This document shows positions 28,287 through 57,850 of a DNA stretch of 64,000 bases, piece by piece; the first letter of the stretch is position 1; each line of letters starts with the position of its first letter. The notes beneath the pieces are model-generated. The model saw nothing but the letters and a program-made list of their open reading frames with translations. It was not told where the DNA came from and made no database searches. The stretch comes from Shigella phage SSP1, in the sequence record KY963424; one strand, given 5' to 3'. The translations under genes were made by a program, and so were the position numbers.

Positions 28287-28529
28287 TTACGATTCCTTGA
28301 GCAAAGAAGCAAGTTCAGCATAGACTTTATCTAACTCAAAGCCGATGCGAAGAGACACGTTTGTTTTCCGTTGTTTAAGTAACCACTCGGATATGTTAGG
28401 GATGCCAGCTAATCTATGCGGTACCACCCTACATAGCTTTTCCGAAGTGTCGTAAACAGGAACTTTACGTTCTTTTACTGGGAACTTCCTTGTTTCCCAT
28501 TTTTTATTCTTCACTGTCATTTCTAGCAC
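28287..28529 (-). CDS. Hypothetical protein (80 aa)
   Basis: ORF overlapping end of 929-aa gene. Confidence 0.4.
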   Translation of the reverse strand: MLEMTVKNKKWETRKFPVKERKVPVYDTSEKLCRVVPHRLAGIPNISEWLLKQRKTNVSLRIGFELDKVYAELASLLKES

Positions 28530-31293
28530 CTAGCTCTGCCATTGCTTCATCATGCATATGTTTCTCCTCGTCAGTCATAAACTTATATGGGATTGGCATA
28601 CACTCGATTTTACAATAAGTTCTGTACCAGTCTACAATATTCTCCGTATTCATATCCTTACCAATACCCATCATACCAAGATACATTCTCGCATATTTTG
28701 GGTTAGCACTCTGACCTGTTTTAAGGAAGAAATCTTTCTTTTTACCTTTCAGAGCTTCTATGAATGGTTTGATAGTGACATTTGAACACTTCTTAATATC
28801 TTCCCAGAACATCTCGTGCATTTTATGGAAAAATGCCGCTCGATCATTCGGTTTATCCTTGATATATTGTTCAACATGCTCAACTGTTACATCTTTAATA
28901 GACTCAAGATGATAGTAGCGAACAAGAAGTAGTTTAGCTTCATACGCATCTGCATGGCGTGGAGCACAATAATCAGGAGTTGAATACAAAATAGCTTTGA
29001 TTCGCTCTTCCGTATATTCCTTCCCAGCACCTTCGATAGTTCCCCAGCTTTCACTGAAAATATCAATAGTTGCACCCTGATCAAGCAAGTAATAACGTAA
29101 AGTACTAGTATAGTTCCTAGATTCCAGCTCCCTACGACGTGCGTATAATTGCTGTGCTAACTCCAGCCAACCTTCATCAATGTTATATTGCTCAGAACCT
29201 GCGGAGAATCCACTCGTAGATTTATCAATAAAATAATAAATGTTCTGAGCGCCACGGTCGCGCCTGATTGCTTGAAAACGCATGTTTGGCGCTTGGTTGC
29301 TGGTTCTAGTAATAACGAATACGTTATCAAAATAGTTGAAGTCAACACCACTAGTTACTGATGGACTACATAATAAGCAATCAATTTGTTGGTCAATTAG
29401 CTCATTAGTTGTGTAATCCAGAATACGTCTAATATCTACATCAGACGTAGAGTTTGAGTGGATTTCCTTAACTAACGCACCCGTATTACGACGCAACGCC
29501 ATGCCCTTCTCATTCAGTTCATCTGGACCACAGTCAGATACTAGGATAGATTTCTCACCCATCTCTAGAGAAGTCTGAAGTGCAACCCAAATACTGGATT
29601 CATCAGGGAACTCATAAGCATGAGCTTTTGACAGCATTTTACGGTGGTGATTATAAAATGCAACCGGTTTATCAAAATCAATTAGAGAACCGTAGGCTTC
29701 AATAGTCTCAGCACTAATATCACCATCGGATAAGATTACAGTTTTAGCTGTCATGAGGATGTCACGTAGAACTTGAATACACTCGCGACGTTGTTTAACA
29801 ACTGGGGCGAATAATAGATCATTCATTACAGCGTCACATTCATCAATAAAGATGGTGTCTATTTGACCAATAAAACTTTTGAACTTATGCAAAGAGTGAA
29901 TAGTTGTGGACATACGATCAATAGCTCCACGTTTAAAGTTGAGCATATCTACAGACTTATCATATTGTCCTGCGCTAAATTTCTTAGCGTTTGAAGATAC
30001 CAGCGCTCTAGTATTTGTAACTGCTAAAAAGTTGCCAGGAAGAACCCCTGCGTCCAGCCATTTAGTTACTGCCGTAGTTTTACCAGTACCAAGACTTGCC
30101 TTAACAAATGTTATATGGCCCTTTGGGGGCACAATGTTAATCTTCAGGTATGGAACTTCTGGTGGAGAATCCACTTCTAATTTCTTGAGTGGAACACCCT
30201 TCAGATTTAATGGAATCTCACGTTTAGAATTATTAACAAACGCTTTGAGAGCCTGCTTACGACCGTTATTAAAGTAATCTTGAATATTACGACTGTTATC
30301 TTTAGTTGCAATATATTCAGATAAAGCGGGTTTAATCTCACGTTCTAGCCATGCGAAATCAACACCATCCTCTAATGCTCTATGGTATAGTTTGGGGATA
30401 ATACGCAAGTACACCCCATCATCAGCTTCTTCCAATTCGCTGATGGTTTCTTCTACTTTATCAGAAGCAATCTTTTTGCCTTTAATTTGATCAAGTAAAG
30501 AATAAAACTCTTCCTTAAACTCCCCTCTAGTTGTTTCATAGTCAACCAGATTATTAGGCAAATTTACCTTCGAACCTTTAACATACACCAGACGTGGCTT
30601 ACTCTCCGCTTTAAACGGATCAACAATACCATCGCTAAATAAAGGGTCGGCAAAATAGTGAAGCTGGACAGATGAATAATAAGCTAAGTCGGCAATATCA
30701 AAACCGAATTTTTGCTTACTACTATCATTGATAGACGTAAATAGGAACTTTAACTGACCTTGAGTTACCTTGACGTTAGATTCTAGCATTAAGTGCATTC
30801 GGATACCTGGTTTTAGGCCAGCCGAAGACGATGCATGAGCAATAAACCCTGCATCAAGAGGAAACATGTCCTCACTAATACTATTCAACATCTTAATAAT
30901 GTGGCGGGCCATACCTACAAGATTAAACTTGTCGTACCCACCGGTATCTATGATACCATCCACGTCCATAGCAATAATATTGCTAGGGTTGGATACATTA
31001 AAGTTACCTTTCTTACGTCGCACATTATTTTTAGGTGCAAGACATCGACCTCGTACCGCAACGATATGAGGGTCAGACGTTAAACGTCTCATAAGTGGTA
31101 ACATTTCGGCAAGGCTTTGCGGGTCATGCTCTTCTATTACATCAAATTTGAAGGGCATAGAAGCTGGTTTACCTTCTGGATGCTCTTTCGAGAATCGTTT
31201 GGCAAAGGTATAATCTTCCGCTTTGATTTCTCGCCAAATACCTGTTGCTAAATCACGAGAAAATCCGGCGTGACCTTGGAGGATAGAAAACAC
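28504..31293 (-). CDS. Putative replication-origin-binding protein / SF2 ATPase (UL9-like)
   Basis: 929 aa; Walker A VKASLGTGKTT, Walker B/DExD IFIDECD; large N-terminal domain. Confidence 0.65.
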   Translation of the reverse strand: MFSILQGHAGFSRDLATGIWREIKAEDYTFAKRFSKEHPEGKPASMPFKFDVIEEHDPQSLAEMLPLMRRLTSDPHIVAVRGRCLAPKNNVRRKKGNFNVSNPSNIIAMDVDGIIDTGGYDKFNLVGMARHIIKMLNSISEDMFPLDAGFIAHASSSAGLKPGIRMHLMLESNVKVTQGQLKFLFTSINDSSKQKFGFDIADLAYYSSVQLHYFADPLFSDGIVDPFKAESKPRLVYVKGSKVNLPNNLVDYETTRGEFKEEFYSLLDQIKGKKIASDKVEETISELEEADDGVYLRIIPKLYHRALEDGVDFAWLEREIKPALSEYIATKDNSRNIQDYFNNGRKQALKAFVNNSKREIPLNLKGVPLKKLEVDSPPEVPYLKINIVPPKGHITFVKASLGTGKTTAVTKWLDAGVLPGNFLAVTNTRALVSSNAKKFSAGQYDKSVDMLNFKRGAIDRMSTTIHSLHKFKSFIGQIDTIFIDECDAVMNDLLFAPVVKQRRECIQVLRDILMTAKTVILSDGDISAETIEAYGSLIDFDKPVAFYNHHRKMLSKAHAYEFPDESSIWVALQTSLEMGEKSILVSDCGPDELNEKGMALRRNTGALVKEIHSNSTSDVDIRRILDYTTNELIDQQIDCLLCSPSVTSGVDFNYFDNVFVITRTSNQAPNMRFQAIRRDRGAQNIYYFIDKSTSGFSAGSEQYNIDEGWLELAQQLYARRRELESRNYTSTLRYYLLDQGATIDIFSESWGTIEGAGKEYTEERIKAILYSTPDYCAPRHADAYEAKLLLVRYYHLESIKDVTVEHVEQYIKDKPNDRAAFFHKMHEMFWEDIKKCSNVTIKPFIEALKGKKKDFFLKTGQSANPKYARMYLGMMGIGKDMNTENIVDWYRTYCKIECMPIPYKFMTDEEKHMHDEAMAELGARNDSEE

Positions 31294-31790
31294 AACAATA
31301 CTCCTGTATTGATTAATCGAAATCTTTTCTTTAGGACTATTCAGAAAGAATAGAACAACTATTACTACTATTTACGTAAACATCAATTATCATCAAACAA
31401 TATGAATAAGTTATCATATCTCAGTGCTGTGCTCTCTTCGCTCATATACAGAATAGAACCTAGGTCATTGGCCGCTAAGCCGATTCTATTTGTCCTCACT
31501 ATCCTATTGGTAGGTGACTACTGTACGTGCCGCCATTCGCTGCTCTTTTCGTTCGCACCCCCATATAAAGCTCTGCCTATATAACGAGCTAAATATGCAC
31601 GGTTTGGATTTACCTTTCCGAATTCAGGGTACACAGATCACTTAATTGAAGATTAACTAATGCAATATAAACACTAGTAATAGTTAAAACAACCCTTAAT
31701 GGGGCAGCCTAACTGTTCCGTATCGCGGATTGTAAACAAGAAAAATTAGCAAAATCAATTTTTACTAATGTCTCTCAATTCAATATAAAT

Positions 31791-31819
31791 ATTATATCAA
31801 GATTTTGGGCATCCTGCAA
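31791..31819 (-). promoter_or_regulatory. Early promoter (TTGCAG-17-TATAAT)
   Basis: Reverse complement TTTTACTTGCAGGATGCCCAAAATCTTGATATAAT; followed by about 480 nt leader before the 929-aa gene. Confidence 0.5.
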
Positions 31820-31913
31820 GTAAAATTTTCCGGATGGTGCTATCATTGGTCTTGAGTACGGGTAAAACCGAGCCAAAATGACTCGGTAATCAGAGTTCAG
31901 CCAATAAAAATCA

Positions 31914-32303
31914 TTAGTCATTTAATCCCGGAACATAGATCCCAACACGGTTTAATTGTTCTTTAGCTTCTTTGAGAATATCTGGAGTGTACTCCCAAAT
32001 ATCATCTTCCACCTGTAAAAGATGGGGCGAACAACCGTCATCCGGCACACGGCATATGGCCAAACCACGTGGGTGGAACAAAGAGAAATTTAGGGCAACA
32101 ATTAAACCCATAGCAGACAATTCATTCCAATCCAATTCCCATTCCCCCGCGTAGCCGGATAGGAAAACACCAACACAGGGATCATCTATTTGCTGCTCCG
32201 GAAAAGTGAAGGAGGCTTGTCTTACCCCCAACCAACGTTGTAGCAGCTTCTCCGCACGTTTCACCAAACTAGGATCAATCTGACGCCAATATACTTGTTC
32301 CAT
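31914..32303 (-). CDS. Hypothetical protein, paralog A (129 aa)
   Basis: Shares ...GxxExxxxELxxMGLxxALNxxLF...VPGL(N/T) architecture with adjacent ORF. Confidence 0.55.
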   Translation of the reverse strand: MEQVYWRQIDPSLVKRAEKLLQRWLGVRQASFTFPEQQIDDPCVGVFLSGYAGEWELDWNELSAMGLIVALNFSLFHPRGLAICRVPDDGCSPHLLQVEDDIWEYTPDILKEAKEQLNRVGIYVPGLND

Positions 32304-32312
32304 TGTGCCCCC

Positions 32313-32741
32313 TTAGGCAGTTAAACCTGGGATCATATACCCGAAACGTCGAAGTTTCTGAATCCCCTCATTTACTTCTTCCGGTGAGTAAGACCAACCA
32401 TAACGTTCATTAACCTGAAAACCAGGAGATTCACTAGTTTTATAGTTAACAACGAGGCGATGCTTAGCAGGCATAAACAGCTTATAGTTTAACGCAAAAA
32501 CTAAGCCCATTTCATCTAACTCTTTCCAGCCGACAATCTCTTCAAGACCCTCCTCTACCTGAACAATTAAACCAATACAGGGAGCCTCATCAATATCATC
32601 TTTAAAAGCAAAGGAGATTTCGTTATTCTCACACCATATTTTCAAAGAGTTAATAGCCTCATTATACAGGCTAGCTGGGAGAGTACGCCAAAAGTTAACC
32701 AAAATTGGATTAGCTTCTTTAGAGAATACATTATTGAACAT
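32313..32741 (-). CDS. Hypothetical protein, paralog B (142 aa)
   Basis: Tandem paralog of 31914..32303. Confidence 0.55.
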   Translation of the reverse strand: MFNNVFSKEANPILVNFWRTLPASLYNEAINSLKIWCENNEISFAFKDDIDEAPCIGLIVQVEEGLEEIVGWKELDEMGLVFALNYKLFMPAKHRLVVNYKTSESPGFQVNERYGWSYSPEEVNEGIQKLRRFGYMIPGLTA

Positions 32742-34808: not shown

Positions 34809-36683
34809 TTATTTAGCTCGAATATCCTGATGTTTCACTCTGCCCATAACCTCGTGCTGTTTGCCGGGGTTAAATGGACGAGCACCCGGATTTCCAAGAT
34901 ACCCACAAACTCGACGAGTTACCTCAAGAGTTTCGGGGTCATGATTACCACAGATAGGGCACTTAAATCCATCTTCGGATGCTATTGTTTCACCTAAGAA
35001 TCCACATTTACCGCAAGAATCCACTGGAGTATTAATACCGAAGTAATGAACTTTACTAGCAGCATAATTAATAACCCATTCCAGTGCATCTGGGAATCGT
35101 TTCATATCTGGTAGTTCTACATAGGAAATGCACCCACCAGAAGCAATCGGAGTGAAATTAGATTCATAATCAAATTTCACGTTAGGAGCAACTTTACGTT
35201 CTACATCAAGGTGGTGAGAGTTAGTGTAGTATCCTTTGGACAGAATATCTTCATGCTCCGGGAAATATTCGCGGTCTAGACGACAAAAACGGTCACATAG
35301 GGATTCTGATGGTGTAGCATACAGGCTATAACCTAATTTAGTTTCTTCCTTCTTCTGATCGACTCTATCCCGCATGTACTGCAATACACGCTGAACAAAC
35401 TTGATGCAGGTCTCGGACATTGTGTCTACATCTTTGCCAAACATAAACTGTAGCATTTCATGGCAACCAATATACCCTAGAGATACAGAAGCACGGTTAT
35501 AGAAATGATCGAATACATACTCATCCGGCTCCAAGCGTAACCCAAAGGCTCCTGACATATAGAGGATGGGTGCAGCTTTAGCTTGAATGTATTTTAAGCG
35601 ATCAACTCTCCACTCCAATGCTTTTAACGCTGTATCCACACGTAGCTCAAGCAAATCAAAGAATAGATCAATATTTCCTTCAGCTTCGATAGCAATTCTA
35701 GGCAAGTTTACAGAAACAACACCTAAGTTATTACGACCGGCAGTTTCACCATCTTCTGTAGCAGCTAGGAATGAACGGCAGCCCATAGAAACTTTATAGT
35801 CACCAGTAACTTCCACAACCTTATCATAGCTGATATAATCTGGATACATACGTTCAGCAGTACATTTCATAGCTAACTTCTTGATGTCATAATTAACATC
35901 TCCTGGTTTCATATTTACGCCATCACGAAGTACAAATACCAGTTTCGGGAAGATAGCTGTACGTTTATTGATACCTAAACCATCCATGCGTACTTTCAGT
36001 ATTGCTTTCTGTACTAGACGTGCTTCCCAAGAAGTTCCTAGACCAAAACCAAAGGTAATAAATGGACTCTGCCCATTAGAGTTGAACATGGTATTGATTT
36101 CATATTCTAAACCCTGACAAGCGTCATAGACTTCTTTTTCAGTCATCTCCGTAGCCATTACGGATGCTTTGGCTTCATCCTTAGTCCAACGTTTTGCAAA
36201 CGCATGATTTTTGTCATAGGATTTACGAACATAAGGGGCTAATACTTCATCAAGGCGATCTACAGAAGTACCACCATACTGATGGGAGCTAACCTGAGTG
36301 ATAATCTGAGCAGTAATAGCCGCCGCAGTAGTGATAGAGTTTGGAGTGCTAATTTCAGCATTACCAACCTTCATGCCATTCTTCAACATATCTTCCAGGG
36401 CCACCAGACAACAGTTAGTCATGCCTAATGCAGCATAATCAGCATCATGGAAATGAATATCCCCAATCATATGAGCATTTCGAATCTGAATTGGCATTTC
36501 TTCTAGAATTAGATACTTACTCAACTCACCTGCAAGCATATCCCTTTGTGTAGGGAAACGTTCTGAGGGTTTATTGGCATTATTAAATAGCAGTTCTTCA
36601 TCTGCTGACCCTTCGATAATCTCTTTGCAGTTTCTAATTAACGCCTGCATTTCTTTATACTTTAGTTCTTCATTACGATTCAT
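34809..36683 (-). CDS. nrdD: Anaerobic ribonucleoside-triphosphate reductase (class III)
   Basis: 624 aa; C-terminal glycyl-radical motif RVCGYLG and Cys4 zinc site CGKCGF...CPICG. Confidence 0.9.
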   Translation of the reverse strand: MNRNEELKYKEMQALIRNCKEIIEGSADEELLFNNANKPSERFPTQRDMLAGELSKYLILEEMPIQIRNAHMIGDIHFHDADYAALGMTNCCLVALEDMLKNGMKVGNAEISTPNSITTAAAITAQIITQVSSHQYGGTSVDRLDEVLAPYVRKSYDKNHAFAKRWTKDEAKASVMATEMTEKEVYDACQGLEYEINTMFNSNGQSPFITFGFGLGTSWEARLVQKAILKVRMDGLGINKRTAIFPKLVFVLRDGVNMKPGDVNYDIKKLAMKCTAERMYPDYISYDKVVEVTGDYKVSMGCRSFLAATEDGETAGRNNLGVVSVNLPRIAIEAEGNIDLFFDLLELRVDTALKALEWRVDRLKYIQAKAAPILYMSGAFGLRLEPDEYVFDHFYNRASVSLGYIGCHEMLQFMFGKDVDTMSETCIKFVQRVLQYMRDRVDQKKEETKLGYSLYATPSESLCDRFCRLDREYFPEHEDILSKGYYTNSHHLDVERKVAPNVKFDYESNFTPIASGGCISYVELPDMKRFPDALEWVINYAASKVHYFGINTPVDSCGKCGFLGETIASEDGFKCPICGNHDPETLEVTRRVCGYLGNPGARPFNPGKQHEVMGRVKHQDIRAK

Positions 36684-51182: not shown

Positions 51183-51254
51183 GCCGTCCTAGTATAATTG
51201 GTATTATCAAGCCGTAACTGGTGGAAGATGTAGGTTCGAATCCTACGGTCGGTA
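51183..51254 (+). ncRNA. tRNA-like element (canonical T-arm, 6/7 acceptor pairs, no recognisable anticodon arm)
   Basis: GTAGG-TTCGAAT-CCTAC T-arm; 5' GCCGTCC pairs with 3' GGTCGGT except one U-U; D- and anticodon regions do not fold canonically. Confidence 0.35.
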
Positions 51255-51754
51255 AGAACTGGATAACTGATGCTTTTAACGTAAAAGCTTCCGAGGTTAG
51301 TTGCGCACTGCCTAAACCACGCGGTAGTTGGTTCCAGACTAACCAACCAGTCTGCTGAATAGTTTTATTACGATTTAACTATGTCCAGGCTAAAGAAGAA
51401 CTTTAGAAGGTATTCTAGGATAGTGAAGTTCTTCCTCCATATCGGAGTAGTTTTTCAAGCTATCCACAAAGTGGGAAATGCTGACATGAGAGATGTCACT
51501 AATGGTGCACAATAGCACAGGTAATTCGCGATAATTCCTGTTGAGTAGCAGCAAAAGGCGGGAAGTCATGACCCCAAGCCTAACCGAGTCCTCAATATAC
51601 CGCAGGACATAACCACTAAGTCACCCTGACTTAAACTGGAAAATAATAGACGTTACCGTATTTTGTCTTGAAATACTTAATGAGTGAGACTTATGACTCT
51701 CCCGGTATCGTCTGTATTTTTAAGAGTTTTTACGAGAGTTCTTAAAAATACTTA

Positions 51755-51827
51755 AACGGGGTGTAGTCTAAGGGAGAGGCAGGAGTCTTCTAAATTCCTT
51801 TATGCAGGTTCGAATCCTGTATGAGCA
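51755..51827 (+). ncRNA. tRNA-like 3' element (T-arm GCAGG-TTCGAAT-CCTGT) at end of ORF-less region
   Basis: Canonical T-loop; no complementary 5' acceptor strand found by eye. Confidence 0.3.
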
Positions 51828-52734
51828 AAAATTGATGCGTAATATCAAACGTTGGGGTATTGGTGCTGCAGTTGGTTTGGTAGGTTTAGTTCTGGCCCTT
51901 AACTCCTATACTGTTGTTCAAGACGGTACTGTTAAAACCCAGACTTTCCTGGGTAAAGTTGACCCTAGCCCAGTATTACCCGGCTTTCATATTGTAAATC
52001 CTTTTGCTTCTTTCGATACTTTTAGTACTAAAGATATTGCTCTAAAATTAGATAAACTTCAGGTTCCTAGTCAGGATAAGTTTAAATCCACTGTTGACCT
52101 GACTGTTATGTTGCAGTTTGATGGTTCTAAGGCACCGATTAACCGTATTAATGCAGGTACTCAGGATCAATCGTTAGACAAATATGTAACTGAAAAATTA
52201 CTGTCTACTATTCGTGAGTTTGGTAAATCTGTACCTAAAGCACAAGATTTGTTTGATGCTAAAATTCAGGCTCAATTGCAAACTGCAATTCAACAGGAAG
52301 TTGAAGAGTATGCACGCCCATATGGTTACACAGTTAAGCAGGTGTTCCTTCAGGATATTACTTTGCCACCGGTAATCATGGAACAGGTACAGAATACCAA
52401 AGTTCGTGAAGAGCAGGTTAATGCTGCTAAAGCTGAATTAGCTCGTGTTGAACAGGAAGCACAGCAAAAAGTTAAACAAGCAGAAGCAGATCGTGAAGCC
52501 CGCAACAACCAAGCTATTGCCAATGAACGTGACGCAGATGCTAAACTATACGCAGCTAAGAAAGAAGCTGAAGCTAACGCCGCATTACAACGTACCATTA
52601 CTCCTGAGATGATTCGCTGGAAGCAACTGGAAGTCGAAATGATTCGTGCTCAGAAATATCAAGGTGGTGTACCCCAGACTGTGGTAGGTACTGGCTACGA
52701 TGGTCAAATGATCATGGATATGCGTAATAAATAA
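51802..52734 (+). CDS. SPFH/band-7 domain membrane protein (prohibitin/HflC-like)
   Basis: N-terminal TM helix WGIGAAVGLVGLVLAL, SPFH-like core, C-terminal Ala/Glu/Gln-rich coiled coil; likely start at ATG 51835 (MRNIKRW); no clear SD. Confidence 0.65.
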   Translation: MQVRILYEQKLMRNIKRWGIGAAVGLVGLVLALNSYTVVQDGTVKTQTFLGKVDPSPVLPGFHIVNPFASFDTFSTKDIALKLDKLQVPSQDKFKSTVDLTVMLQFDGSKAPINRINAGTQDQSLDKYVTEKLLSTIREFGKSVPKAQDLFDAKIQAQLQTAIQQEVEEYARPYGYTVKQVFLQDITLPPVIMEQVQNTKVREEQVNAAKAELARVEQEAQQKVKQAEADREARNNQAIANERDADAKLYAAKKEAEANAALQRTITPEMIRWKQLEVEMIRAQKYQGGVPQTVVGTGYDGQMIMDMRNK

Positions 52735-52759
52735 TACCCGCATGTAACATCTGAAGTAA

Positions 52760-52796
52760 GCCCTGCGTTCCCTGGAGAGCGCAGGGTTTTTCTGTA
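52760..52796 (+). terminator. Intrinsic terminator after SPFH gene
   Basis: CCCTGCG...CGCAGGG hairpin followed by TTTTTCTG. Confidence 0.65.
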
Positions 52797-52812
52797 TTTA
52801 AGATAAAAGAAA

Positions 52813-52850
52813 AGCCCCTAAGTCTTTCGACTAGGGGCTTTATTGTTTGG
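52813..52850. terminator. Second hairpin, potentially bidirectional terminator
   Basis: AGCCCCTAG-TCTTTCGA-CTAGGGGCT flanked by A-run upstream and TTATTGTTT downstream. Confidence 0.55.
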
Positions 52851-53058
52851 TTCTTTAGAACCATATACTCTTATTACAGCAACCACCCATACGGGAGGCC
52901 AACCTTGACTGAAAATCTACTCTAGGGGGCAGGATAAGAGTAGGCTTAAAGGCAAACGGATTGAACGCCGGTATTTGCGTAAACATTGCTGGAGAGCAAC
53001 AACGTGCTACAGGCATTGGGCAGCACGAAACAGATTTTCTGCAACACATAATTCCTCC

Positions 53059-53475
53059 TTAGGAGTTATTACCACCATTTTGAGCTTTTGCAACTTGGCT
53101 TTGGCAGAAGCTATTAAACTTACCCATAAGTGATACAAGCTGTTTCCCATCCTCTGTCTTTGCGAAGTCTTCGAAAAGGGCTAGTACTGCCTGTCCTTCC
53201 GCAGAAACCTGCGGTTGTTGGGTTTGTTGCTGAACTTGCTGCTGCGGCACCTGTTGCTGCATTTGTTGAGGCATTTGCGACTGCCCGCTCATTTGCTGCA
53301 TCATTTGCATAGGACTCACACTTCCAGGGTTTTGCTGGAGTTGTTGCTGCATCTGTTGCGCTTCTGCTAAACGCTGTTGCAATTGTTGTAAGTAGGGGTT
53401 ATCCAGACCCGGAACGGGCTGCTGGGAGCCCATATTTTGATTAAGTCCGTTATTTACAAAACCATATTTACTCAT
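53059..53475 (-). CDS. Gln-rich low-complexity protein (138 aa)
   Basis: About 30% Gln (QQLQQRLAEAQQMQQQLQQ...QQMQQQVPQQQVQQQTQQPQ); RBS GGAGGAG upstream; second gene of minus-strand island. Confidence 0.6.
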   Translation of the reverse strand: MSKYGFVNNGLNQNMGSQQPVPGLDNPYLQQLQQRLAEAQQMQQQLQQNPGSVSPMQMMQQMSGQSQMPQQMQQQVPQQQVQQQTQQPQVSAEGQAVLALFEDFAKTEDGKQLVSLMGKFNSFCQSQVAKAQNGGNNS

Positions 53476-53496
53476 AATGGGCTCCTCCCCTTAATA

Positions 53497-54483
53497 TTAA
53501 GCCGGCAGTTTAGCCTGCAGACCAGCCAGAGTCTGAGTGATAGCACCAAGACTTAAAGCGATTTGATTAATTACCTGACCGTTAGCACCGCTACCCGCAG
53601 CGATTGCTTCACGTAGGCGACATGCGTCTAACTCATCCTGGATACGCGCAGTAGTTACACCAGCTATCGCAGTCTGAAGTTCACAGCAACATTCAGCGAT
53701 CTGACGTTCCAAAGAGTTCTGGTTAGCACACATCTGAGCCTGAACAGCGGCAAACTGGTTATTAGTTTGTAAAGTCTGCTGGAAAGCGATCTGTGCAGAA
53801 TCAAACTTATCTTGTGCACGAGCTATCTGATTAGCTGCGAAAGATTGATCAATCTGGCGAGAAAGATCGAACTGACCCTGAATAACGTTGCGAGTTTCCT
53901 GGCAGATTTGATTAGACAGATTAGCACCCGTACCATAGATCGTAGTTAGTACAGACTGAGTATCACGGCTCTGGTTTTGGGATGTCTGGCTAAAACCATT
54001 GTTAACTGCGCTTAAAACAGCTCCAGTACCCTGGTTAGCTTCTGTACGAGTAGTGTTAATAGCTGCTAGAATACTAGCGGTATCTTGGTTCTGAAGTACT
54101 GCATCAACTGCGGTACCTTCACCAACTACACCACGTCCACCGAATCCACCGAAACCACCGAATCCGCCTGTTAATAGAGCACCGATTAGGATAGCTCCGA
54201 ATAGCCCCATACCTTCACCACCGAAAGCACCTGCGTTTGCTGGGTAACCACCCAGTAGGCCAGGGAAGCCACTAGTGAATACGTTTACTGGTTCTTGCAT
54301 TTTATGTTTTCCATATTTATGACAATGTTCATCATCGTCATCTTCTTCATCGTCGTGTTCGCGATGTTTCTCTTCGTAGGCTCTGACCTTCTCCCACTTT
54401 TTCTTATCTGATTCCTCGTGACGGTGCAGTTCTGCTGCAACGCTAGCGACGGTCTCAGGACTCTTAGCTACTTCTTCTGTCAT
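53497..54483 (-). CDS. Membrane protein with acidic/His-rich N-terminus, glycine-zipper TM (GGFGGFGGFGG) and Gln/Asn/Thr-rich C-terminal domain
   Basis: Start MTEEVAK with AGGAGGTG RBS (ORF track extends to 54543); MGLFGAILIGALLTGGFGGFGGFGG hydrophobic Gly-zipper; long Q/N/A/T-rich tail. Confidence 0.6.
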   Translation of the reverse strand: MTEEVAKSPETVASVAAELHRHEESDKKKWEKVRAYEEKHREHDDEEDDDDEHCHKYGKHKMQEPVNVFTSGFPGLLGGYPANAGAFGGEGMGLFGAILIGALLTGGFGGFGGFGGRGVVGEGTAVDAVLQNQDTASILAAINTTRTEANQGTGAVLSAVNNGFSQTSQNQSRDTQSVLTTIYGTGANLSNQICQETRNVIQGQFDLSRQIDQSFAANQIARAQDKFDSAQIAFQQTLQTNNQFAAVQAQMCANQNSLERQIAECCCELQTAIAGVTTARIQDELDACRLREAIAAGSGANGQVINQIALSLGAITQTLAGLQAKLPA

Positions 54484-54545
54484 TTTTTGACACCTCCTAG
54501 TATATAGAAAATGTGTGTCTCTTTGATCACTCATCCATAACATAT

Positions 54546-54574
54546 ACTTTACACTACCCCAGCGAAAATGTCAA
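54546..54574 (-). promoter_or_regulatory. Host-like sigma70 promoter for minus-strand island (TTGACA-17-TAAAGT)
   Basis: Reverse complement CCCTTGACATTTTCGCTGGGGTAGTGTAAAGT; differs from the phage early-promoter family. Confidence 0.5.
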
Positions 54575-54690
54575 GGGGTCTTTAAAAATTGCCCCCGGAT
54601 TTTTAGTGGGGTCACAAATTTTGGTCCTCACCACTTATCTGCTACCCTTAAGTGCCCTATGATTTTCCTCTAAAAAGTTAAAAAATTTGA

Positions 54691-54719
54691 TTGCTTGAAT
54701 GCTAAATTCTCTGTATAAT
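54691..54719 (+). promoter_or_regulatory. T5-type early promoter (TTGCTT-17-TATAAT)
   Basis: AAAAAATTTGATTGCTTGAATGCTAAATTCTCTGTATAAT + CTATAAATTTGAGAGAGG. Confidence 0.65.
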
Positions 54720-54749
54720 ATATCTATAAATTTGAGAGAGGAACCAAAT

Positions 54750-55268
54750 ATGAATGTTGATGAGCTAACACAGCACCTCTTATCTAGAGGATTTGATACA
54801 GATAAATATCATTGCTGGTTAAGTCCGGAAGGGTGGCTAACTGTCCCGTTGTATGACTTCTCTGGGATGTTGAGAGGCTATCAGACGTATAATCCTTCTG
54901 CTCCAAAAGGTCATGGTAAGTGCCCCTTTGAAGCTAAATATTTTACTTATTCTACTACACAGTGTGTATGGGGACTAGAAACTCTCAATGGAGATGAAAA
55001 AGTAGTATTGATTGCTGAATCTGTATTTAAGGCAGTTGCATTACATAACGCTGGTTATCCAGCCCTGGCAATGTTGGGTTCTTCTCCAGGAAAAGCGTTA
55101 TTAAAGCAACTGAAATTATTACCTTTTAAATTGGTAGCTGTCGGGGACAACGATCCTGCTGGTGAAAAATTTGCTAGAAAATTGAACGGCTTTGTTTCTC
55201 CCGTAGATGTGGATGAGATGTCTACCGAAAACTTGAAAAATTTTCTTGCTATGAAGCTAAATTTCTAA
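54750..55268 (+). CDS. Toprim-domain protein (primase-like)
   Basis: VVLIAESVFKAVAL (Toprim Glu) and VAVGDNDPAGEKFARKL (DxD) motifs; start MNVDEL with GAGAGAGG RBS. Confidence 0.5.
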   Translation: MNVDELTQHLLSRGFDTDKYHCWLSPEGWLTVPLYDFSGMLRGYQTYNPSAPKGHGKCPFEAKYFTYSTTQCVWGLETLNGDEKVVLIAESVFKAVALHNAGYPALAMLGSSPGKALLKQLKLLPFKLVAVGDNDPAGEKFARKLNGFVSPVDVDEMSTENLKNFLAMKLNF

Positions 55269-55289
55269 TATAATATATCTTATAAATTC

Positions 55290-55378
55290 GGAAGAATAGC
55301 ATAACGGTATTGCAGCAGATTGCTAATCTGTCGGTTTGAAATATAGCCTTGTGGGTTCGATTCCCACTTCTTCCGCCA
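55290..55378 (+). tRNA. tRNA-Ser(GCT), type II
   Basis: Acceptor GGAAGAA/TTCTTCC, anticodon loop TTGCTAA, long variable arm, T-arm GTGGG-TTCGATT-CCCAC, encoded CCA. Confidence 0.8.
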
Positions 55379-55384
55379 GATTTT

Positions 55385-55462
55385 GGTTCTCAAGCTCATA
55401 TGGTATGAGCACCCGGCTCATAACCGGAAGGTACGTAGGTTCGAATCCTCGGGGAGCCACCA
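55385..55462 (+). tRNA. tRNA with CAT anticodon (Met or Ile2)
   Basis: Acceptor GGTTCTC/GGGAGCC (with G-U pairs), D-stem GCTC/GAGC, anticodon loop CTCATAA, T-loop TTCGAAT with imperfect stem, CCA encoded. Confidence 0.6.
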
Positions 55463-55480
55463 GTTAAATAGAGGTCACAA

Positions 55481-55669
55481 ATGGATCTATATATAGTTTA
55501 TGTTGTGTTTATTCAAGATAGAGAATACCCGGATGAATATAAAAAAGGATATAGGTTAGCCAGAGCTACCTCTGTAGCCCAAGCTATGGATAAAGTGGCA
55601 GATTATATGATTACGGTAGAAAACGTACACTATATCGACTACCTTGAAGCCTCAAAAGTAATTGACTAA
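55481..55669 (+). CDS. Hypothetical protein (62 aa)
   Basis: ORF immediately after tRNA; weak RBS. Confidence 0.4.
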   Translation: MDLYIVYVVFIQDREYPDEYKKGYRLARATSVAQAMDKVADYMITVENVHYIDYLEASKVID

Positions 55670-55678
55670 GGAGACTAT

Positions 55679-55864
55679 ATGTCTAAGTTTCAAGAACTCA
55701 AGCAAGAGCTAGAAGAATGTGCCTGCCCCGAATGTAGGGGAATTGGTGAAAGTTCTGATGCAGAAGCAGGAGATACTTTTTGCAATATCTGGGTTTGCTC
55801 AAATTGCAATGGTACAGGTATTAATCCTAACTGCGGTATTTCCCTAGATATTGAACGAGGATAA
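55679..55864 (+). CDS. Small Cys-rich (zinc-ribbon-like) protein (61 aa)
   Basis: CPECRG...CSNCNGTG two CxxC pairs; AGGAGACTATATG RBS. Confidence 0.45.
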   Translation: MSKFQELKQELEECACPECRGIGESSDAEAGDTFCNIWVCSNCNGTGINPNCGISLDIERG

Positions 55865-55965
55865 TACCTGTGAAACTAAAAGATTATTATATTGGTTGGT
55901 TTGTAGGATTAGTAGTAGGATTTTCACTAGGCTATAATATGTATCAACTAATAAACTGATTACAT

Positions 55966-56042
55966 GGGGGTGTAATCGAATTGGCATAGGTACTGGACTT
56001 AAAATTCAGGTTTTGTGGGTTCGAATCCCACCACCCCTACCA
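55966..56042 (+). tRNA. tRNA with anticodon TAA (Leu-type anticodon) but short variable arm
   Basis: Acceptor GGGGGTG/CACCCCT, anticodon arm CTGGA-CTTAAAA-TTCAG, T-arm GTGGG-TTCGAAT-CCCAC, CCA encoded; D-arm non-canonical. Confidence 0.55.
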
Positions 56043-56057
56043 AATTAAGGAAATAAG

Positions 56058-56225
56058 ATGTATAGACATCCACCTCCGCCAACACGTCGTTCTAGAGAAG
56101 TTATTCTCATGGAATTGACTAAAAACTTCAAGGCAACCCTTGAAGATAGAGATCTAGGCACGGATGAAGACATTGATTTTATTTGTAGACTATTAAAGAT
56201 GAAACTGGAGAAACAACATGGCTAA
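56058..56225 (+). CDS. Hypothetical small protein (55 aa)
   Basis: AAGGAAATAAGATG RBS right after tRNA; below ORF-track cut-off. Confidence 0.35.
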   Translation: MYRHPPPPTRRSREVILMELTKNFKATLEDRDLGTDEDIDFICRLLKMKLEKQHG

Positions 56226-56424
56226 TCCTGAAATTACCGCACAACGCTTCATGCTTAAAGGCATGATTGCTGAGGCAGGTATAACTCAAGAGGTTGCAGA
56301 TTTTCATAAGCAATTTCTTGATATTATAACTCTAGCTAAAGAGACTGGAGAAAAAGAGCACGGAGCAGCAATTATGGCTATATCTCTTATTAGTCTAGAC
56401 TTGGCTGAAGAATCTGGAGTTTAG
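56218..56424 (+). CDS. Hypothetical protein (68 aa)
   Basis: ORF overlapping previous stop. Confidence 0.4.
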   Translation: MANPEITAQRFMLKGMIAEAGITQEVADFHKQFLDIITLAKETGEKEHGAAIMAISLISLDLAEESGV

Positions 56425-56454
56425 CTCCTCCAAACAGAATTTTTAAAAATGTAC

Positions 56455-56484
56455 TTGCCTTTTGCTTTAAATTTCTGATATAAT
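56455..56484 (+). promoter_or_regulatory. T5-type early promoter (TTGCCT-18-TATAAT)
   Basis: AAAAATGTACTTGCCTTTTGCTTTAAATTTCTGATATAAT. Confidence 0.55.
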
Positions 56485-56514
56485 AGTTATATAAATTGAT
56501 GAAGGAGTTAACGA

Positions 56515-56790
56515 ATGCAAAATCGTGTTATAGCTGCTGGTATTGAAAGTGCAATCTGTAAATCCTGGGAAGGCTGGGAAGGTGAGATTGAATGGCTTTA
56601 TTTCTACGATGTAGAACTTCTGCCGGAAATTAAAGCTAAATGTGTTGAAGCTGGCATGGCTCCAGATGCAAAAGCTGATATTGATATTTCAATGTCTGAA
56701 CTTAAAGGTCGTGTAATCACTGTTAGTGATGAGGGTGAAGAAGTTTTTGAACTTCCGTTCTCCTTAACTGTCACTCCTAAGTTCGACTAG
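56515..56790 (+). CDS. Hypothetical acidic protein (91 aa)
   Basis: GAAGGAG RBS. Confidence 0.45.
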   Translation: MQNRVIAAGIESAICKSWEGWEGEIEWLYFYDVELLPEIKAKCVEAGMAPDAKADIDISMSELKGRVITVSDEGEEVFELPFSLTVTPKFD

Positions 56791-56826
56791 CTAATACAGC
56801 ATTGGGCAAGTTCTTTAAAATTTGAC

Positions 56827-56855
56827 TTGCTCAGTGCCTTAAAACTTGATATAAT
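56827..56855 (+). promoter_or_regulatory. T5-type early promoter (TTGCTC-17-TATAAT) upstream of tRNA-Tyr
   Basis: AAAATTTGACTTGCTCAGTGCCTTAAAACTTGATATAAT. Confidence 0.6.
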
Positions 56856-56979
56856 AGTTATCTAATTTGGAAACATATCTGAATGAGAAGTAATTAAGCG
56901 AGTTGCTTTGAGGGGTAAAGTCAGGAAATCCTGAAATATTCCACCTTGAGTTTAACCGACTTACTTTTCATTCAAATAT

Positions 56980-57060
56980 GAGGGATTGGCTCAGTGGCGA
57001 CGGCGCCTGGCTGTAGACCGGGTATATCACGCGGAGGTTCGAGTCCTCCATCCCTCACCA
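56980..57060 (+). tRNA. tRNA-Tyr(GTA)
   Basis: Acceptor GAGGGAT/ATCCCTC perfect, anticodon arm CCTGG-CTGTAGA-CCGGG, extended variable region, T-arm GGAGG-TTCGAGT-CCTCC, CCA encoded. Confidence 0.7.
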
Positions 57061-57078
57061 AATTACTAAGGAAGTAAT

Positions 57079-57624
57079 ATGCACAATAAGTTAATAAATG
57101 AGCTTCAAAAAAGACAAATAATAACAAAAACTAAGGAGTTTGATATAACTCCAGATTTAATAGTTGAATGTTCAAAAGTTTACTTAGAATTAAGTAACAC
57201 AAAAGCTAAGAAAGTCTCTTTAGGGGATCTTAGATATAACGTTAAACTATTGTGCTTATCATTAATTAAATTTAAACAGGAAAATAAACTTGCTATAAAA
57301 GAAGGCTTCATATATTTTATAGCAAATAAGGCCTGGCCCAATTATTTTAAGATTGGTATGTCAGCTAACCCAAAGAAACGCTTAGCGAACTATCAAACAT
57401 ATAGCCCCTTTAGGGATTATACAATGCTACACTGGTCTTTCTGGTTTGATAGAAAGGAAGGTGAAAAGTTTGTCCATAGTCTCTATCATGATAGAGATCA
57501 TGAATGGGTTAAGTTGCCTCAAAGAAAACTAAATAAAATATTTGAACAAATTAATAAACTTTCTGGTTTGGAACATTTAGTACAGAAAGTTAATAGAGAA
57601 ATAGTTAATGCACCTATCGTCTAA
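57079..57624 (+). CDS. T5orf172/GIY-YIG-like domain protein (mobile-element-type)
   Basis: GFIYFIANKAWPNYFKIGMSANPKKRLANYQTYSP resembles the T5orf172 (GIY-YIG-related) signature; AT-rich codon usage; stop overlaps tRNA-Glu 5' end. Confidence 0.55.
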   Translation: MHNKLINELQKRQIITKTKEFDITPDLIVECSKVYLELSNTKAKKVSLGDLRYNVKLLCLSLIKFKQENKLAIKEGFIYFIANKAWPNYFKIGMSANPKKRLANYQTYSPFRDYTMLHWSFWFDRKEGEKFVHSLYHDRDHEWVKLPQRKLNKIFEQINKLSGLEHLVQKVNREIVNAPIV

Positions 57625-57684
57625 TGGTTAGGACATCAGGATTTCAATCTGAGAATCGGAGTTCAATTCTCCGTGGGTGTACCA
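57610..57684 (+). tRNA. tRNA-Glu(TTC)
   Basis: Acceptor GCACCTA/TGGGTGT (two G-U), D-stem GTC/GAC, anticodon arm TCAGG-ATTTCAA-TCTGA, T-arm CGGAG-TTCAATT-CTCCG, CCA encoded. Confidence 0.75.
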
Positions 57685-57692
57685 GTTTCTGC

Positions 57693-57769
57693 ATTCCTAG
57701 AGTGTTACTGGACAGCATGTCGGTCTCCAAAACCGTACGGTCTAGGTTCGAGTCCTAGTAGGTTTGCCA
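57693..57769 (+). tRNA. tRNA-Trp(CCA)-like (acceptor stem with two U-U mismatches)
   Basis: Anticodon arm CGGT-CTCCAAA-ACCG, D-stem GTGT/GCAT, T-arm CTAGG-TTCGAGT-CCTAG, CCA encoded; acceptor ATTCCTA/TAGGTTT pairs only 5 of 7. Confidence 0.5.
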
Positions 57770-57775
57770 AAATTT

Positions 57776-57850
57776 GCACCTTTAGCTGAGATGGATTAGC
57801 GCTTGCCTGAAGAGCTTGAGAGGTTCGTTCGATACGAACAGGGTGCACCA
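57776..57850 (+). tRNA. tRNA-Phe(GAA)-like
   Basis: Acceptor GCACCTT/AGGGTGC, D-stem GCTG/TAGC, anticodon loop CTGAAGA (stem has two U-U), T-arm GTTCG-TTCGATA-CGAAC, CCA encoded. Confidence 0.6.

What the first reader, a model, noticed from the sequence alone, without database searches (positions are those of the whole stretch)
31300..31913. 600-bp non-coding stretch upstream of the origin-binding-protein gene: candidate origin or long structured leader
Between the promoter at 31791..31819 and the start of the 929-aa UL9-like ATPase there is about 480 nt of untranslated, AT-rich sequence with TTATCAT-type repeats and GC-rich islands (for example 31520..31570). Its position next to the putative origin-binding protein makes a replication origin or regulatory leader plausible.
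Basis: inference. Interest (0 to 1): 0.35.

Follow-up and report, generated by a model that had tools for sequence, protein, structure and literature searches.

The report
Conserved structured RNA leader before T5 helicase
The 600-bp gap upstream of the phage T5-type D2 helicase gene is a strongly promoted 491-nt leader whose central ~330 nt fold into an RNA structure that is conserved across several phage genera and absent from the RNA-family database searched; nothing in the sequence marks it as a replication origin.

Summary
The window is a T5-like phage. The finding covers the gap between a DUF7415 gene and the D2 helicase gene (T5.108), and is 98% identical to T5. The gap, the promoter and the roughly 490-nt untranslated leader are real. 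The "TTATCAT repeats" are two copies, at chance frequency, and are not conserved.

The region holds a terminator, an extended -10 early promoter, a 5' hairpin and a hairpin with an almost invariant 21-nt loop. A ~330-nt multi-helix domain follows, closed by a ~35-bp duplex, then a small hairpin and the ribosome-binding site.

Compensatory base changes support the fold: 12 pairs within the T5 type and 6 within a second type, against 0-1 in slid controls. The same helices sit at the same positions, with different sequences, in Klebsiella, Pectobacterium and Providencia phages. Wobble pairs place the fold on the strand that has the sequence of the D2 transcript. There is no conserved ORF and no Rfam match.

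No iterons, DnaA boxes or tandem repeats are present. The gene's "origin-binding" label rests on helicase-core similarity only.

Best reading: an RNA element tied to D2 expression, possibly processed by RNase III. An origin-transcript role is not excluded. Function is unproven.

The parts
31862..31886 (-). Intrinsic terminator of the upstream operon (stem ACCGAG/CUCGGU followed by a U run)
   Evidence: Inverted repeat I21. Maps onto the T5 'terminator' feature 58952-58976 through alignment A1. The hairpin keeps its complementarity in relatives, e.g. CGAGUCAAAAUGACUCG and CCAGAGGAUUAUCCUCUGG.
31791..31832 (-). Early sigma-70 promoter: A/T-rich upstream tract, -35 TTGCAG (31814-31819), 17-bp spacer, TG-extended -10 TGATATAAT (31791-31799); inferred start A at about 31784
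   Evidence: Read from the sequence. Coincides with the T5 record's promoter feature 58999-59073. It is the only part of the region that still matches by BLAST in the Proteus, Klebsiella and Providencia relatives. It is conserved in all loci.
31294..31784 (-). 491-nt untranslated leader of the D2 (T5.108) transcript
   Evidence: No terminator-like site on the minus strand and no second promoter near the gene. No conserved ORF on the sense strand. MFE -129.7 kcal/mol, z = -2.8 on the sense strand, against -98.9, z = -2.2 on the antisense strand.
31729..31784 (-). 5'-terminal hairpin starting at the transcript's first bases
   Evidence: Helix 1 of the consensus fold: 23 pairs, 99% paired. Analogous 5' hairpins with other sequences occur in the Providencia and Pectobacterium relatives.
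31687..31732 (-). Hairpin presenting the most conserved sequence of the leader, the 21-nt loop ACGGAACAGUUAGGCUGCCCC (31701-31721)
   Evidence: The loop is nearly invariant in types A, B, C, E and F, while the enclosing stem changes sequence. The motif occurs exactly once per genome in 31 viral contigs.
31356..31686 (-). Core folded domain (~330 nt), closed by a ~35-bp interrupted duplex: P1 plus its extension, 5' strand 31646-31686 and 3' strand 31356-31396
   Evidence: Inverted repeats I1 and I3. Helices 4 and 5 of the consensus fold. P1 keeps its position but changes sequence in six types. Core length is 319-331 nt in five types at 58-65% identity.
31423..31642 (-). Helix Hb (5' strand 31626-31642, 3' strand 31423-31437), enclosing the inner multi-branch region
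   Evidence: The helix reads CUGUG/CACAG (window), CUGCG/CGCAG, CUACA/UGUAG, CUACAC/GUGUAG, CUAGAA/UUCUAG and UUGCUA/UAGCAA in different phages, always fully complementary.
31447..31493 (-). Stem P5' capped by hairpin P6, GGCUUAGCGGCC (31470-31481), which carries the conserved CUUAGCGG motif
   Evidence: Covariance model R1 gives a single hit in the 64-kb window, E = 3e-13. Helix 14 has four pairs with changes on both sides. P6 varies as GGCU/GGCC, GACU/GGUC and GCCU/GGGU. The same tip motif sits on a perfect hairpin in Aeromonas phage TS3.
31399..31420 (-). 3' hairpin of the core (AUAUGA / UCAUAU)
   Evidence: Two independent compensatory changes within type A: GUAUGA/UCAUAC and GUAUGG/CCAUAC. 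The equivalent hairpin in types B, C and F has other stems and a conserved loop, GUUGCCACC.
31337..31353 (-). Small hairpin CUAUUC-UUUCU-GAAUAG between the core and the ribosome-binding site
   Evidence: Helix 17. Equivalent hairpins are CUAUC/GAUAG, CUUUCC/GGAAAG and CUGUUC/GGACAG in other types.
31291..31305 (-). Shine-Dalgarno AGGAG (31301-31305) and GTG start codon (31291-31293) of the 929-aa D2 helicase gene (28504-31293)
   Evidence: The same start is annotated in slur09 and T5. The protein matches PHROG 3712 full length and Pfam Herpes_ori_bp over part of the profile only.

Best explanation
The region is not empty spacer. It is the transcribed 491-nt 5' leader of the early D2 (T5.108) helicase transcript.

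Shown here:
- The upstream operon ends at a terminator.
- A conserved, TG-extended -10 sigma-70 promoter fires about 490 nt before the gene.
- On the strand that has the sequence of the D2 transcript, the region folds into a conserved architecture: a 5' hairpin; a hairpin displaying an almost invariant 21-nt loop; a ~330-nt multi-helix core closed by a ~35-bp duplex and containing a CUUAGCGG-tipped stem; and a small hairpin just before the ribosome-binding site.
- This architecture is maintained by compensatory mutations within two T5-like sequence types. It is also kept in Klebsiella, Pectobacterium and Providencia relatives, although the core sequence is only about 60% identical.

Inferred:
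- The element acts at the RNA level and is functionally coupled to D2. Most likely it is a post-transcriptional control module that sets how much helicase is made. The conserved loops would be recognition sites for a protein, possibly D2 itself or another early protein, as in T4 autogenous translational operators.
- The long closing duplex is a plausible RNase III site. Cleavage there would separate the folded core from a short, hairpin-protected D2 mRNA.
For: - Identity and annotation: 98% mean column identity to T5 58.9-59.5 kb. The T5 record annotates only a terminator and a promoter here.
- Fold stability: MFE z = -2.8 on the sense strand.
- Covariation, type A (10 sequences including the window): 158 pairs, 99.5% of cells paired, 12 pairs changed on both sides against 0-1 in slid controls. 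0 of 500 shuffles reach the observed values, except for the count of further pair types.
- Covariation, type B (11 sequences): 159 pairs, 6 changed on both sides against 0-1 in slid controls. The helix topology is the same.
- Strand: 249 G.U cells against 3 A.C cells. The same pairs read on the other strand would be only 83.9% paired.
- Cross-type helices: P1, P2, Hb, P5', P6, the 3' hairpin and the pre-SD hairpin lie at matching positions with different sequences in up to seven types. Core length is constant at 319-331 nt.
- No conserved ORF. One type-A variant has no ORF of 25 aa or more on the sense strand.
- Single copy: one R1 hit in the window, and one motif per genome.
- Linkage to D2: a long non-coding gap precedes the D2 homologue in every Demerecviridae member examined, even where the upstream genes differ. 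Serratia has 433 nt, Vibrio about 710 and 860 nt, Aeromonas about 1.6 kb.
- The ~35-bp P1 duplex meets the length requirement for RNase III substrates (established knowledge).
Against: - No expression data were available, so transcription, the 5' end and any processing are inferred from sequence.
- Covariation cannot distinguish RNA from single-stranded DNA of the same sense.
- Pairing of the ribosome-binding region with upstream sequence is predicted in types A and B, but the bases involved are invariant there and the pairing is not conserved in types C, E and F. A direct occlusion mechanism is therefore unsupported.
- Two relatives hint that the RNA may be a separate unit rather than a D2 leader. 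Proteus phage Stubb has a consensus promoter between the folded region and D2. Aeromonas phage TS3 has a strong terminator there.
- A ~330-nt multi-domain fold is larger than most cis-regulatory leaders.
- Homology of the Serratia, Vibrio and Aeromonas regions to the T5 RNA was not demonstrated; the R1 search gave only weak hits.
Confidence: 0.45

Rival explanations
1. Stand-alone structured non-coding RNA. The ~330-nt core is released from the leader, for example by RNase III cutting the P1 duplex. It then acts in trans as a protein scaffold, decoy or catalytic RNA during early infection, and its position before D2 reflects only shared early expression.
For: - The core is a discrete unit closed by a long duplex, with constant length (319-331 nt) and an architecture conserved at only 58-65% sequence identity.
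- Between types A and B the flanks are 100% and 92% identical but the core only 65%, as if the core were exchanged as a cassette.
- Proteus phage Stubb carries a consensus TTGACA-18-TATAAT promoter 67 nt before the D2 ATG, downstream of the folded region.
- Aeromonas phage TS3 has a strong terminator about 90 nt before the ATG, after 1.6 kb of non-coding sequence that holds three CUUAGCGG-type motifs.
Against: - The element is invariably adjacent to D2 and co-oriented with it in all members examined.
- There is no terminator between the core and D2 in the T5-type phages.
- No processing data are available.
- Homology of the TS3 region is unproven.
Confidence: 0.22
2. Origin-associated transcript. 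The promoter and leader form a transcription-activated replication origin. The folded RNA would form a persistent hybrid or primer, as ColE1 RNA II or the phage T4 oriF/oriG transcripts do. That intermediate would be handed to the D2 helicase encoded immediately downstream.
For: - T5 replication origins were reported near the centre of the genome (bioRxiv 10.1101/866236). This locus is at 58.9-59.5 kb of 121.75 kb, about 48.5%.
- A strong early promoter is followed by about 490 nt of non-coding transcript next to the first replication gene.
- A large non-coding region is retained before D2 homologues across the family. In Vibrio phage Brizo and Aeromonas phage TS3 it lies between divergently transcribed genes.
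- D2 unwinds DNA and was proposed as an initiation protein (PMC3632103).
Against: - There are no repeated protein-binding sites and no distinct unwinding element apart from the AT-rich arms of the RNA helices.
- No antisense promoter of the ColE1 RNA I kind was found.
- The GC-skew minimum lies at about 36-38 kb and follows the direction of transcription.
- 'Near the centre' is imprecise and equally fits the strand-switch region about 5 kb away.
- Conserved intramolecular RNA folding competes with RNA-DNA hybrid formation.
Confidence: 0.15
3. Classical DNA replication origin. Double-stranded DNA sites here would be bound by the D2 protein or by host DnaA, and the RNA fold would be incidental.
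For: - The region is adjacent to a gene annotated 'replication origin binding'.
- The flanks are AT-rich.
- One exact copy of CGTTCGCAC lies at 31550-31558.
Against: - No iterons, tandem repeats or DnaA boxes with one mismatch or fewer lie in the region. TTATCAT is at chance frequency.
- The UL9-box-like 9-mer is single, has no inverted partner, and is absent from types B-G, whose D2 proteins are 55-91% identical.
- The conservation pattern is compensatory and strand-specific, which double-stranded protein-binding sites do not produce.
- The Pfam match of D2 covers only profile positions 46-197 of 820. From my own knowledge this is the helicase core and excludes UL9's C-terminal DNA-binding domain.
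Confidence: 0.06
4. A miniature inverted-repeat mobile element, or another selfish insertion, that landed in the D2 leader. Its terminal inverted repeats would give the long stem, and it would have no function for the phage.
For: - A ~330-bp non-coding unit is bounded by ~35-bp imperfect inverted repeats.
- The locus does attract insertions. An HNH endonuclease gene and an 89-nt insert with an 8-bp duplication occur here in some relatives.
Against: - It is single-copy per genome.
- It is present at the same site in all relatives across genera.
- Internal helices, not just the termini, show compensatory change.
- Its length is constant.
- No target-site duplication is evident.
Confidence: 0.03

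Closest known systems
RNase III-processed structured leaders of phage early transcripts (phage T7 early-region processing hairpins; the phage lambda N-gene leader)
   Same: It lies downstream of a strong early promoter read by host RNA polymerase. It has a long, interrupted double-stranded stem of at least 20 bp just upstream of a gene's ribosome-binding site. Plausible consequences are mRNA stabilisation or translational control.
   Different: Those sites are simple hairpins of about 50-60 nt. Here the duplex closes a ~330-nt multi-helix domain with conserved loops. Cleavage has not been shown.
Autogenous translational operators of phage T4 replication genes (gene 32 leader pseudoknot, gene 43 operator)
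   Same: A structured element in the 5' leader of a replication-protein mRNA. This is the proposed logic for coupling the RNA to D2 level.
   Different: The T4 operators are short, roughly 20-40 nt. No binding of D2 or any other protein to this RNA is known. The resemblance is functional analogy only.
ColE1 RNA II, and the phage T4 oriF/oriG and T7 primary-origin transcripts
   Same: A promoter-driven non-coding transcript next to replication functions. ColE1 RNA II is also about 550 nt long and depends on its fold.
   Different: There is no antisense regulator promoter, no identified hybrid-forming or RNase H site, and no mapped origin here. The T4 and T7 origin transcripts do not need a conserved fold.
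Herpes simplex oriS / UL9 origin-binding system
   Same: The downstream protein shares SF2 helicase-core similarity with UL9 (Pfam PF02399, E = 1.3e-7). One CGTTCGCAC 9-mer resembles UL9 Box I.
   Different: There are no paired inverted boxes flanking an AT spacer. The 9-mer is not conserved in sister phages. The Pfam match stops at profile position 197 of 820, and UL9's DNA-binding domain is C-terminal (my own knowledge).
Large structured non-coding RNAs associated with phages and prophages (ROOL, GOLLD)
   Same: A large, multi-helix, covariation-supported RNA of unknown function encoded by phages.
   Different: It has no Rfam match to these or any other family. It is smaller, about 330 nt in the T5-type phages, and is embedded in an mRNA leader rather than lying next to tRNA genes.

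Membership tests
Replication origin with repeated initiator sites (iteron, DnaA-box or UL9-box type) | Two or more repeated or inverted binding sites for the initiator | tested here: not met
   There are no tandem repeats and only weak two-copy direct repeats. TTATCAT occurs 17 times against 18.6 expected. No DnaA box with one mismatch or fewer lies in the region. The UL9-box-like 9-mer is single.
Replication origin with repeated initiator sites (iteron, DnaA-box or UL9-box type) | AT-rich DNA-unwinding element next to the binding sites | tested here: inconclusive
   Stretches of 27-34% GC exist at 31300-31400 and 31600-31850. They coincide with the promoter and with the two arms of the P1 RNA duplex.
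Replication origin with repeated initiator sites (iteron, DnaA-box or UL9-box type) | Replication initiation mapped to the site, or the initiator footprinted on it | not testable with these tools
   The only evidence is a literature statement that T5 origins lie near the genome centre (10.1101/866236). The primary mapping paper is not held.
Structured RNA element (cis-regulatory leader or non-coding RNA) | Secondary structure conserved through compensatory base changes | tested here: met
   12 pairs (type A) and 6 pairs (type B) changed on both sides, against 0-1 in slid controls. Homologous helices have different sequences in up to seven types.
Structured RNA element (cis-regulatory leader or non-coding RNA) | Strand specificity: G.U pairs tolerated on the strand that has the sequence of the transcript | tested here: met
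   There are 249 G.U cells and 3 A.C cells. Pairing is 99.5% on the sense strand and 83.9% if read on the opposite strand. The sense-strand MFE is lower. The fold was predicted on the sense strand, which biases this test somewhat.
Structured RNA element (cis-regulatory leader or non-coding RNA) | Lies in a transcribed, non-coding region | tested here: inconclusive
   A conserved promoter lies upstream and there is no conserved ORF. No transcript data could be consulted.
Structured RNA element (cis-regulatory leader or non-coding RNA) | Effect on expression of the downstream gene | not testable with these tools
   This needs reporter fusions or mutants.
Any Rfam 15 family | Covariance-model score at or near the gathering threshold | tested here: not met
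   The window gives only tRNAs at gathering score. In the region, the best hits reach 14 bits against thresholds of 48-55. Ten relatives' loci give nothing.
RNase III processing site | About 20 bp or more of largely continuous double-stranded RNA | tested here: met
   Helices 4 and 5 give 35 pairs in type A, and helix 5 gives 32 pairs in type B.
RNase III processing site | Cleavage in vivo or in vitro | not testable with these tools
   No data.
ColE1 RNA II-type primer | Antisense regulator RNA and promoter on the opposite strand | tested here: not met
   The promoter scan finds no plus-strand site in 31000-32400. This is a consensus scan only.
Miniature inverted-repeat mobile element | Multiple copies and patchy presence | tested here: not met
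   There is one copy in the window and one per genome in 31 contigs. It is present at this site in every relative examined.

The most novel reading that the evidence does not exclude
The folded ~330-nt core is a previously undescribed family of large phage RNA, conserved across Demerecviridae and perhaps expanded to more than 1 kb in Aeromonas phages. It would be excised from the D2 leader and work as an RNA in its own right in starting phage DNA replication. For example, it could act as a structured pre-primer or loading platform recognised by the D2 helicase. That would make the RNA, rather than a set of DNA repeats, the specificity determinant of the T5 origin.
Probability: 0.15. Interest if true: 0.8.

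Novelty: new member of a known kind. Interest (0 to 1): 0.5.

Why it matters
T5 is a classical model phage whose replication origin and initiation mechanism have never been defined at sequence level. Its reference annotation leaves this 470-nt stretch blank.

A covariation-supported, multi-genus RNA structure sits directly in front of the first replication helicase gene. This gives a concrete, easily mutated target for asking how T5 controls or starts replication. It also adds a candidate large structured RNA family that Rfam lacks.

The analysis corrects a widespread annotation habit as well. The 'origin-binding protein' label comes from helicase-core similarity and should not be used to infer that an origin lies next to the gene.

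Tried and rejected
- Rfam searches of the window, of the region at E up to 10, and of ten relatives found nothing relevant. ARAGORN finds tRNAs only at 55-64 kb.
- TTATCAT repeats, DnaA boxes and tandem repeats are at chance level or absent.
- The UL9 Box I-like 9-mer CGTTCGCAC is single, restricted to type A, and treated as coincidence.
- GC skew has its extremum at about 36-38 kb and follows gene orientation. It is uninformative for this site.
- Coding potential: sense-strand ORFs are short, mostly start with GTG or TTG, and are not conserved between types. Small 'hypothetical proteins' annotated here in some records are inconsistent gene-caller output.
- A small covariance model of P5'/P6 (R1) was used to reach distant relatives. 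It found only Providencia phage PSTCR5 (L031), at E = 0.03-0.1. Serratia, Vibrio, Aeromonas and Proteus were not detected, so family-wide homology is unproven.
- The metagenome pattern scan was too unspecific. It returned 120 mostly random hits and about 7 relevant ones, all of known types.
- Structure-aware MAFFT (Q-INS-i) is not installed, and a full-length model would exceed the size limit. Cross-type helices were therefore verified by script.
- Pairing of GCGAUAC (5' region) with GUAUUGU (between the SD and the start codon) is predicted in types A and B, but the bases are invariant there and the pairing is absent in types C, E and F. It is not adopted.
- An alternative partner for the Hb 5' strand, the GAGAAGUG motif, was rejected by my own reading of the type-B sequences: its changes are not compensatory there.
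- Literature: no paper found describes this region, a T5 transcriptome or a sequence-level origin. The Bourguignon 1976 mapping paper is not held.
- A PDB sequence search with the D2 N-terminal 300 aa gave no meaningful hit.
Full report
**What the window is**

The window is a T5-like phage (Demerecviridae, Tequintavirus), in reverse orientation relative to the T5 reference. A 5-kb query around the finding matches 530 phage records, the best at 97% identity.

The finding's interval is the gap between two minus-strand genes. The upstream gene is a DUF7415 gene at 31914-32303. The downstream gene is the 929-aa gene at 28504-31293, which starts with GTG and has the Shine-Dalgarno AGGAG at 31301-31305.

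That downstream gene is T5.108. The databases name it 'replication origin binding', and Wong et al. characterised it biochemically as the bipolar D2 helicase (PMC3632103). The gap aligns to T5 58.9-59.5 kb at 98% mean column identity. The T5 records annotate only a terminator and a promoter there, and nothing in the following 470 nt.

**Checking the observation**

The non-coding stretch and the promoter are real. On the minus strand an A/T tract precedes -35 TTGCAG (31814-31819). A 17-bp spacer follows, then a TG-extended -10, TGATATAAT (31791-31799). This maps exactly onto the T5 promoter feature.

The promoter is the only part of the region still detectable by BLAST in the Proteus, Klebsiella and Providencia relatives. 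The inferred start near 31784 gives a 491-nt leader.

The upstream operon ends at a hairpin plus U run at 31862-31886. GC content is 27-34% in the flanks and 41-47% in the centre.

The 'TTATCAT-type repeats' are two copies of a heptamer that occurs 17 times in the window against 18.6 expected. There are no tandem repeats and no DnaA boxes with one mismatch or fewer in the region.

**What is actually there**

A repeat scan shows adjacent long-range inverted repeats, 31357-31389 against 31643-31685. The minus-strand RNA folds with these as a long closing stem (MFE -129.7 kcal/mol, z = -2.8). The plus strand folds less well (-98.9, z = -2.2).

I fetched the region upstream of D2 homologues from 34 viral contigs and several GenBank phages. 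All keep a long gap before D2. The leaders fall into sequence types:

| Type | Phages |
|---|---|
| A | T5 and this window; some Epseptimavirus |
| B | other Tequintavirus |
| C | Klebsiella phage Sugarland group |
| D | Providencia phages PR1 and PSTCR5 |
| E | Pectobacterium phage DU_PP_V |
| F | Pectobacterium phage My1 |
| G | Proteus phage Stubb |

Between types A and B the 5' 99 nt are 100% identical and the 3' 66 nt are 92% identical. The core is only 65% identical. Core length is nearly constant across five types, at 319-331 nt.

**Evidence for a conserved fold**

Within type A (10 sequences including the window), RNAalifold predicts 158 pairs:
- 99.5% of cells are standard pairs.
- 12 pairs show changes on both sides that keep pairing, against 0-1 when partners are slid by 1-3 columns.
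- 0 of 500 shuffles reach the observed values for four of the five measures; the count of further pair types is not exceeded.

Within type B (11 sequences), 159 pairs are predicted with 6 compensatory pairs, against 0-1 in slid controls. The order of helices is the same.

Across types, a script confirmed that seven helices sit at matching positions with different but complementary sequences. Examples:
- Hb reads CUGUG/CACAG, CUGCG/CGCAG, CUACA/UGUAG, CUACAC/GUGUAG, CUAGAA/UUCUAG and UUGCUA/UAGCAA.
- P1 reads AACUAUUACUA/UAGUAAUAGUU, AACUGUUAC/GUAACAGUU, GAUUAUUAUACAG/CUGUAUAAUAAUU and CUAACCACAUA/UAUGUGGUUAG.
- The 3' hairpin reads AUAUGA/UCAUAU, GUAUGA/UCAUAC and GUAUGG/CCAUAC.

The fold belongs to the D2-sense strand. 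There are 249 G.U cells against 3 A.C cells, and the same pairs read on the other strand would be only 83.9% paired.

No ORF is conserved on the sense strand, and one type-A variant has none of 25 aa or more.

Conserved single-stranded motifs stand out:
- the 21-nt loop ACGGAACAGUUAGGCUGCCCC, at 31701-31721, found once per genome in 31 contigs;
- the hairpin tip CUUAGCGG, within 31470-31481;
- in types B, C, E and F, the motifs GAGAAGUG and GUUGCCACCCC.

A covariance model of the CUUAGCGG stem finds exactly one site in the 64-kb window, E = 3e-13. Rfam has no match in the window, the region or the relatives.

**Breadth across the family**

Recognisable homologues occur in Tequintavirus, Epseptimavirus, and the Klebsiella, Pectobacterium and Providencia phages. 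Proteus phage Stubb keeps the P5'/P6 motif.

Serratia phage Kamaji has a 433-nt gap before its D2 homologue. Vibrio phages Brizo and D233 have about 710 and 860 nt, and Aeromonas phage TS3 about 1.6 kb. My small model could not establish homology for these.

TS3 does carry three sense-strand TTAGCGG motifs. One sits at the tip of a perfect hairpin. A strong terminator lies about 90 nt before the start codon. Stubb has a consensus promoter between the folded region and D2.

**Interpretation**

Shown: this is a promoter-proximal, strand-specific, covariation-supported structure that is non-coding, single-copy and tightly linked to D2.

Inferred: it works as RNA. My preferred mechanism is post-transcriptional control of D2 synthesis. 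The conserved loops would be recognition sites, and the ~35-bp P1 duplex is a plausible RNase III site. Cleavage there would release the core and leave a short D2 mRNA protected by a hairpin.

A stand-alone, trans-acting RNA is the main rival. The Stubb promoter, the TS3 terminator and the cassette-like core favour it.

An origin-transcript role is not excluded. T5 origins were reported near the genome centre (10.1101/866236), and this locus is at about 48.5% of T5.

A classical double-stranded DNA origin has no sequence support. There are no iterons or DnaA boxes, and the GC-skew minimum is about 5 kb away, at the strand switch.

The gene's 'origin-binding' name derives from a Pfam match to profile positions 46-197 of 820 of Herpes_ori_bp. 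From my own knowledge that stretch is the helicase core.

One curiosity is the sequence CGTTCGCAC at 31550-31558. It is single, and it is absent from types B-G.

A mobile-element origin is unlikely, because the element is single-copy, present at this site in every relative examined, and shows compensatory change in its internal helices.

**Novelty and limits**

I found no description of this element in Rfam or in the papers I could search. It may be among the unnamed candidates of large phage RNA surveys (PMC10690425).

I rate it a new member of a known kind: a structured phage leader or non-coding RNA. Interest is moderate, because T5 is a tractable model and the element sits at the entrance of its replication module.

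All functional statements are inference. No expression, processing, binding or origin-mapping data were available.

Noticed in passing
window 31550-31558 (+): CGTTCGCAC equals the first 9 of the 11 bases of HSV-1 UL9 Box I (CGTTCGCACTT, recalled from memory). It is the only exact copy in the 64-kb window. It is present in all type-A leaders and absent from types B-G. It is single, with no inverted partner.
   Followed up: yes
L011 960-1048, L018 958-1046, L032 957-1045, L196 654-742: An 89-nt insert lies just after the leader's 5' hairpin in a few T5-like phages, flanked by an 8-bp direct repeat (TTTTTCTT). It folds into a stem-loop, and no other copy was found in the window or the fetched loci. 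It could be a small mobile or duplicated element.
   Followed up: partly
L003, L012, L023 (ORF about 430-967); L015 (ORF 308-844); L195: In some relatives a 178-aa ORF lies between the upstream gene and the leader. It is annotated as an HNH endonuclease in phage SP15 (L195). Just downstream of it sits a second promoter, TTTGCAAGGGAG...TATAAT, followed by the same leader start. This locus is a hotspot for insertions.
   Followed up: partly
window ~36.7-36.9 kb: The cumulative GC-skew minimum and a switch of coding strand lie between nrdD (34809-36683, minus strand) and plus-strand ORFs starting at about 36877. In Vibrio and Aeromonas relatives this divergent junction lies directly beside the D2 leader. 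It is an alternative place to look for an origin.
   Followed up: no
L036 (Proteus phage Stubb), about 1434-1463: A consensus promoter (TTGACA, 18-nt spacer, TATAAT) lies 67 nt before the D2 start codon, downstream of a ~730-nt non-coding region that has its own promoter. D2 there need not be translated from the long leader.
   Followed up: partly
L040 (Aeromonas phage TS3), 219-1808: About 1.6 kb of non-coding sequence lies between divergent nrdD and the D2 homologue. It holds three sense-strand TTAGCGG motifs, the first in the perfect hairpin CCCGAAAAGCUUAGCGGUUUUUCGGG. A strong intrinsic terminator lies about 90 nt before the start codon. This may be a much larger version of the RNA.
   Followed up: partly
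window 28504-31293 (-): The 'replication origin binding' label of this gene family rests on a Pfam match to positions 46-197 of the 820-position Herpes_ori_bp profile. GenBank records name the same protein variously as primase, helicase, D2 protein or origin-binding protein.
   Followed up: partly
window 51183-63538 (+): A cluster of tRNA genes (20 Rfam hits, 18 by ARAGORN) lies on the strand opposite to the replication genes, as expected for the T5 tRNA region.
   Followed up: no
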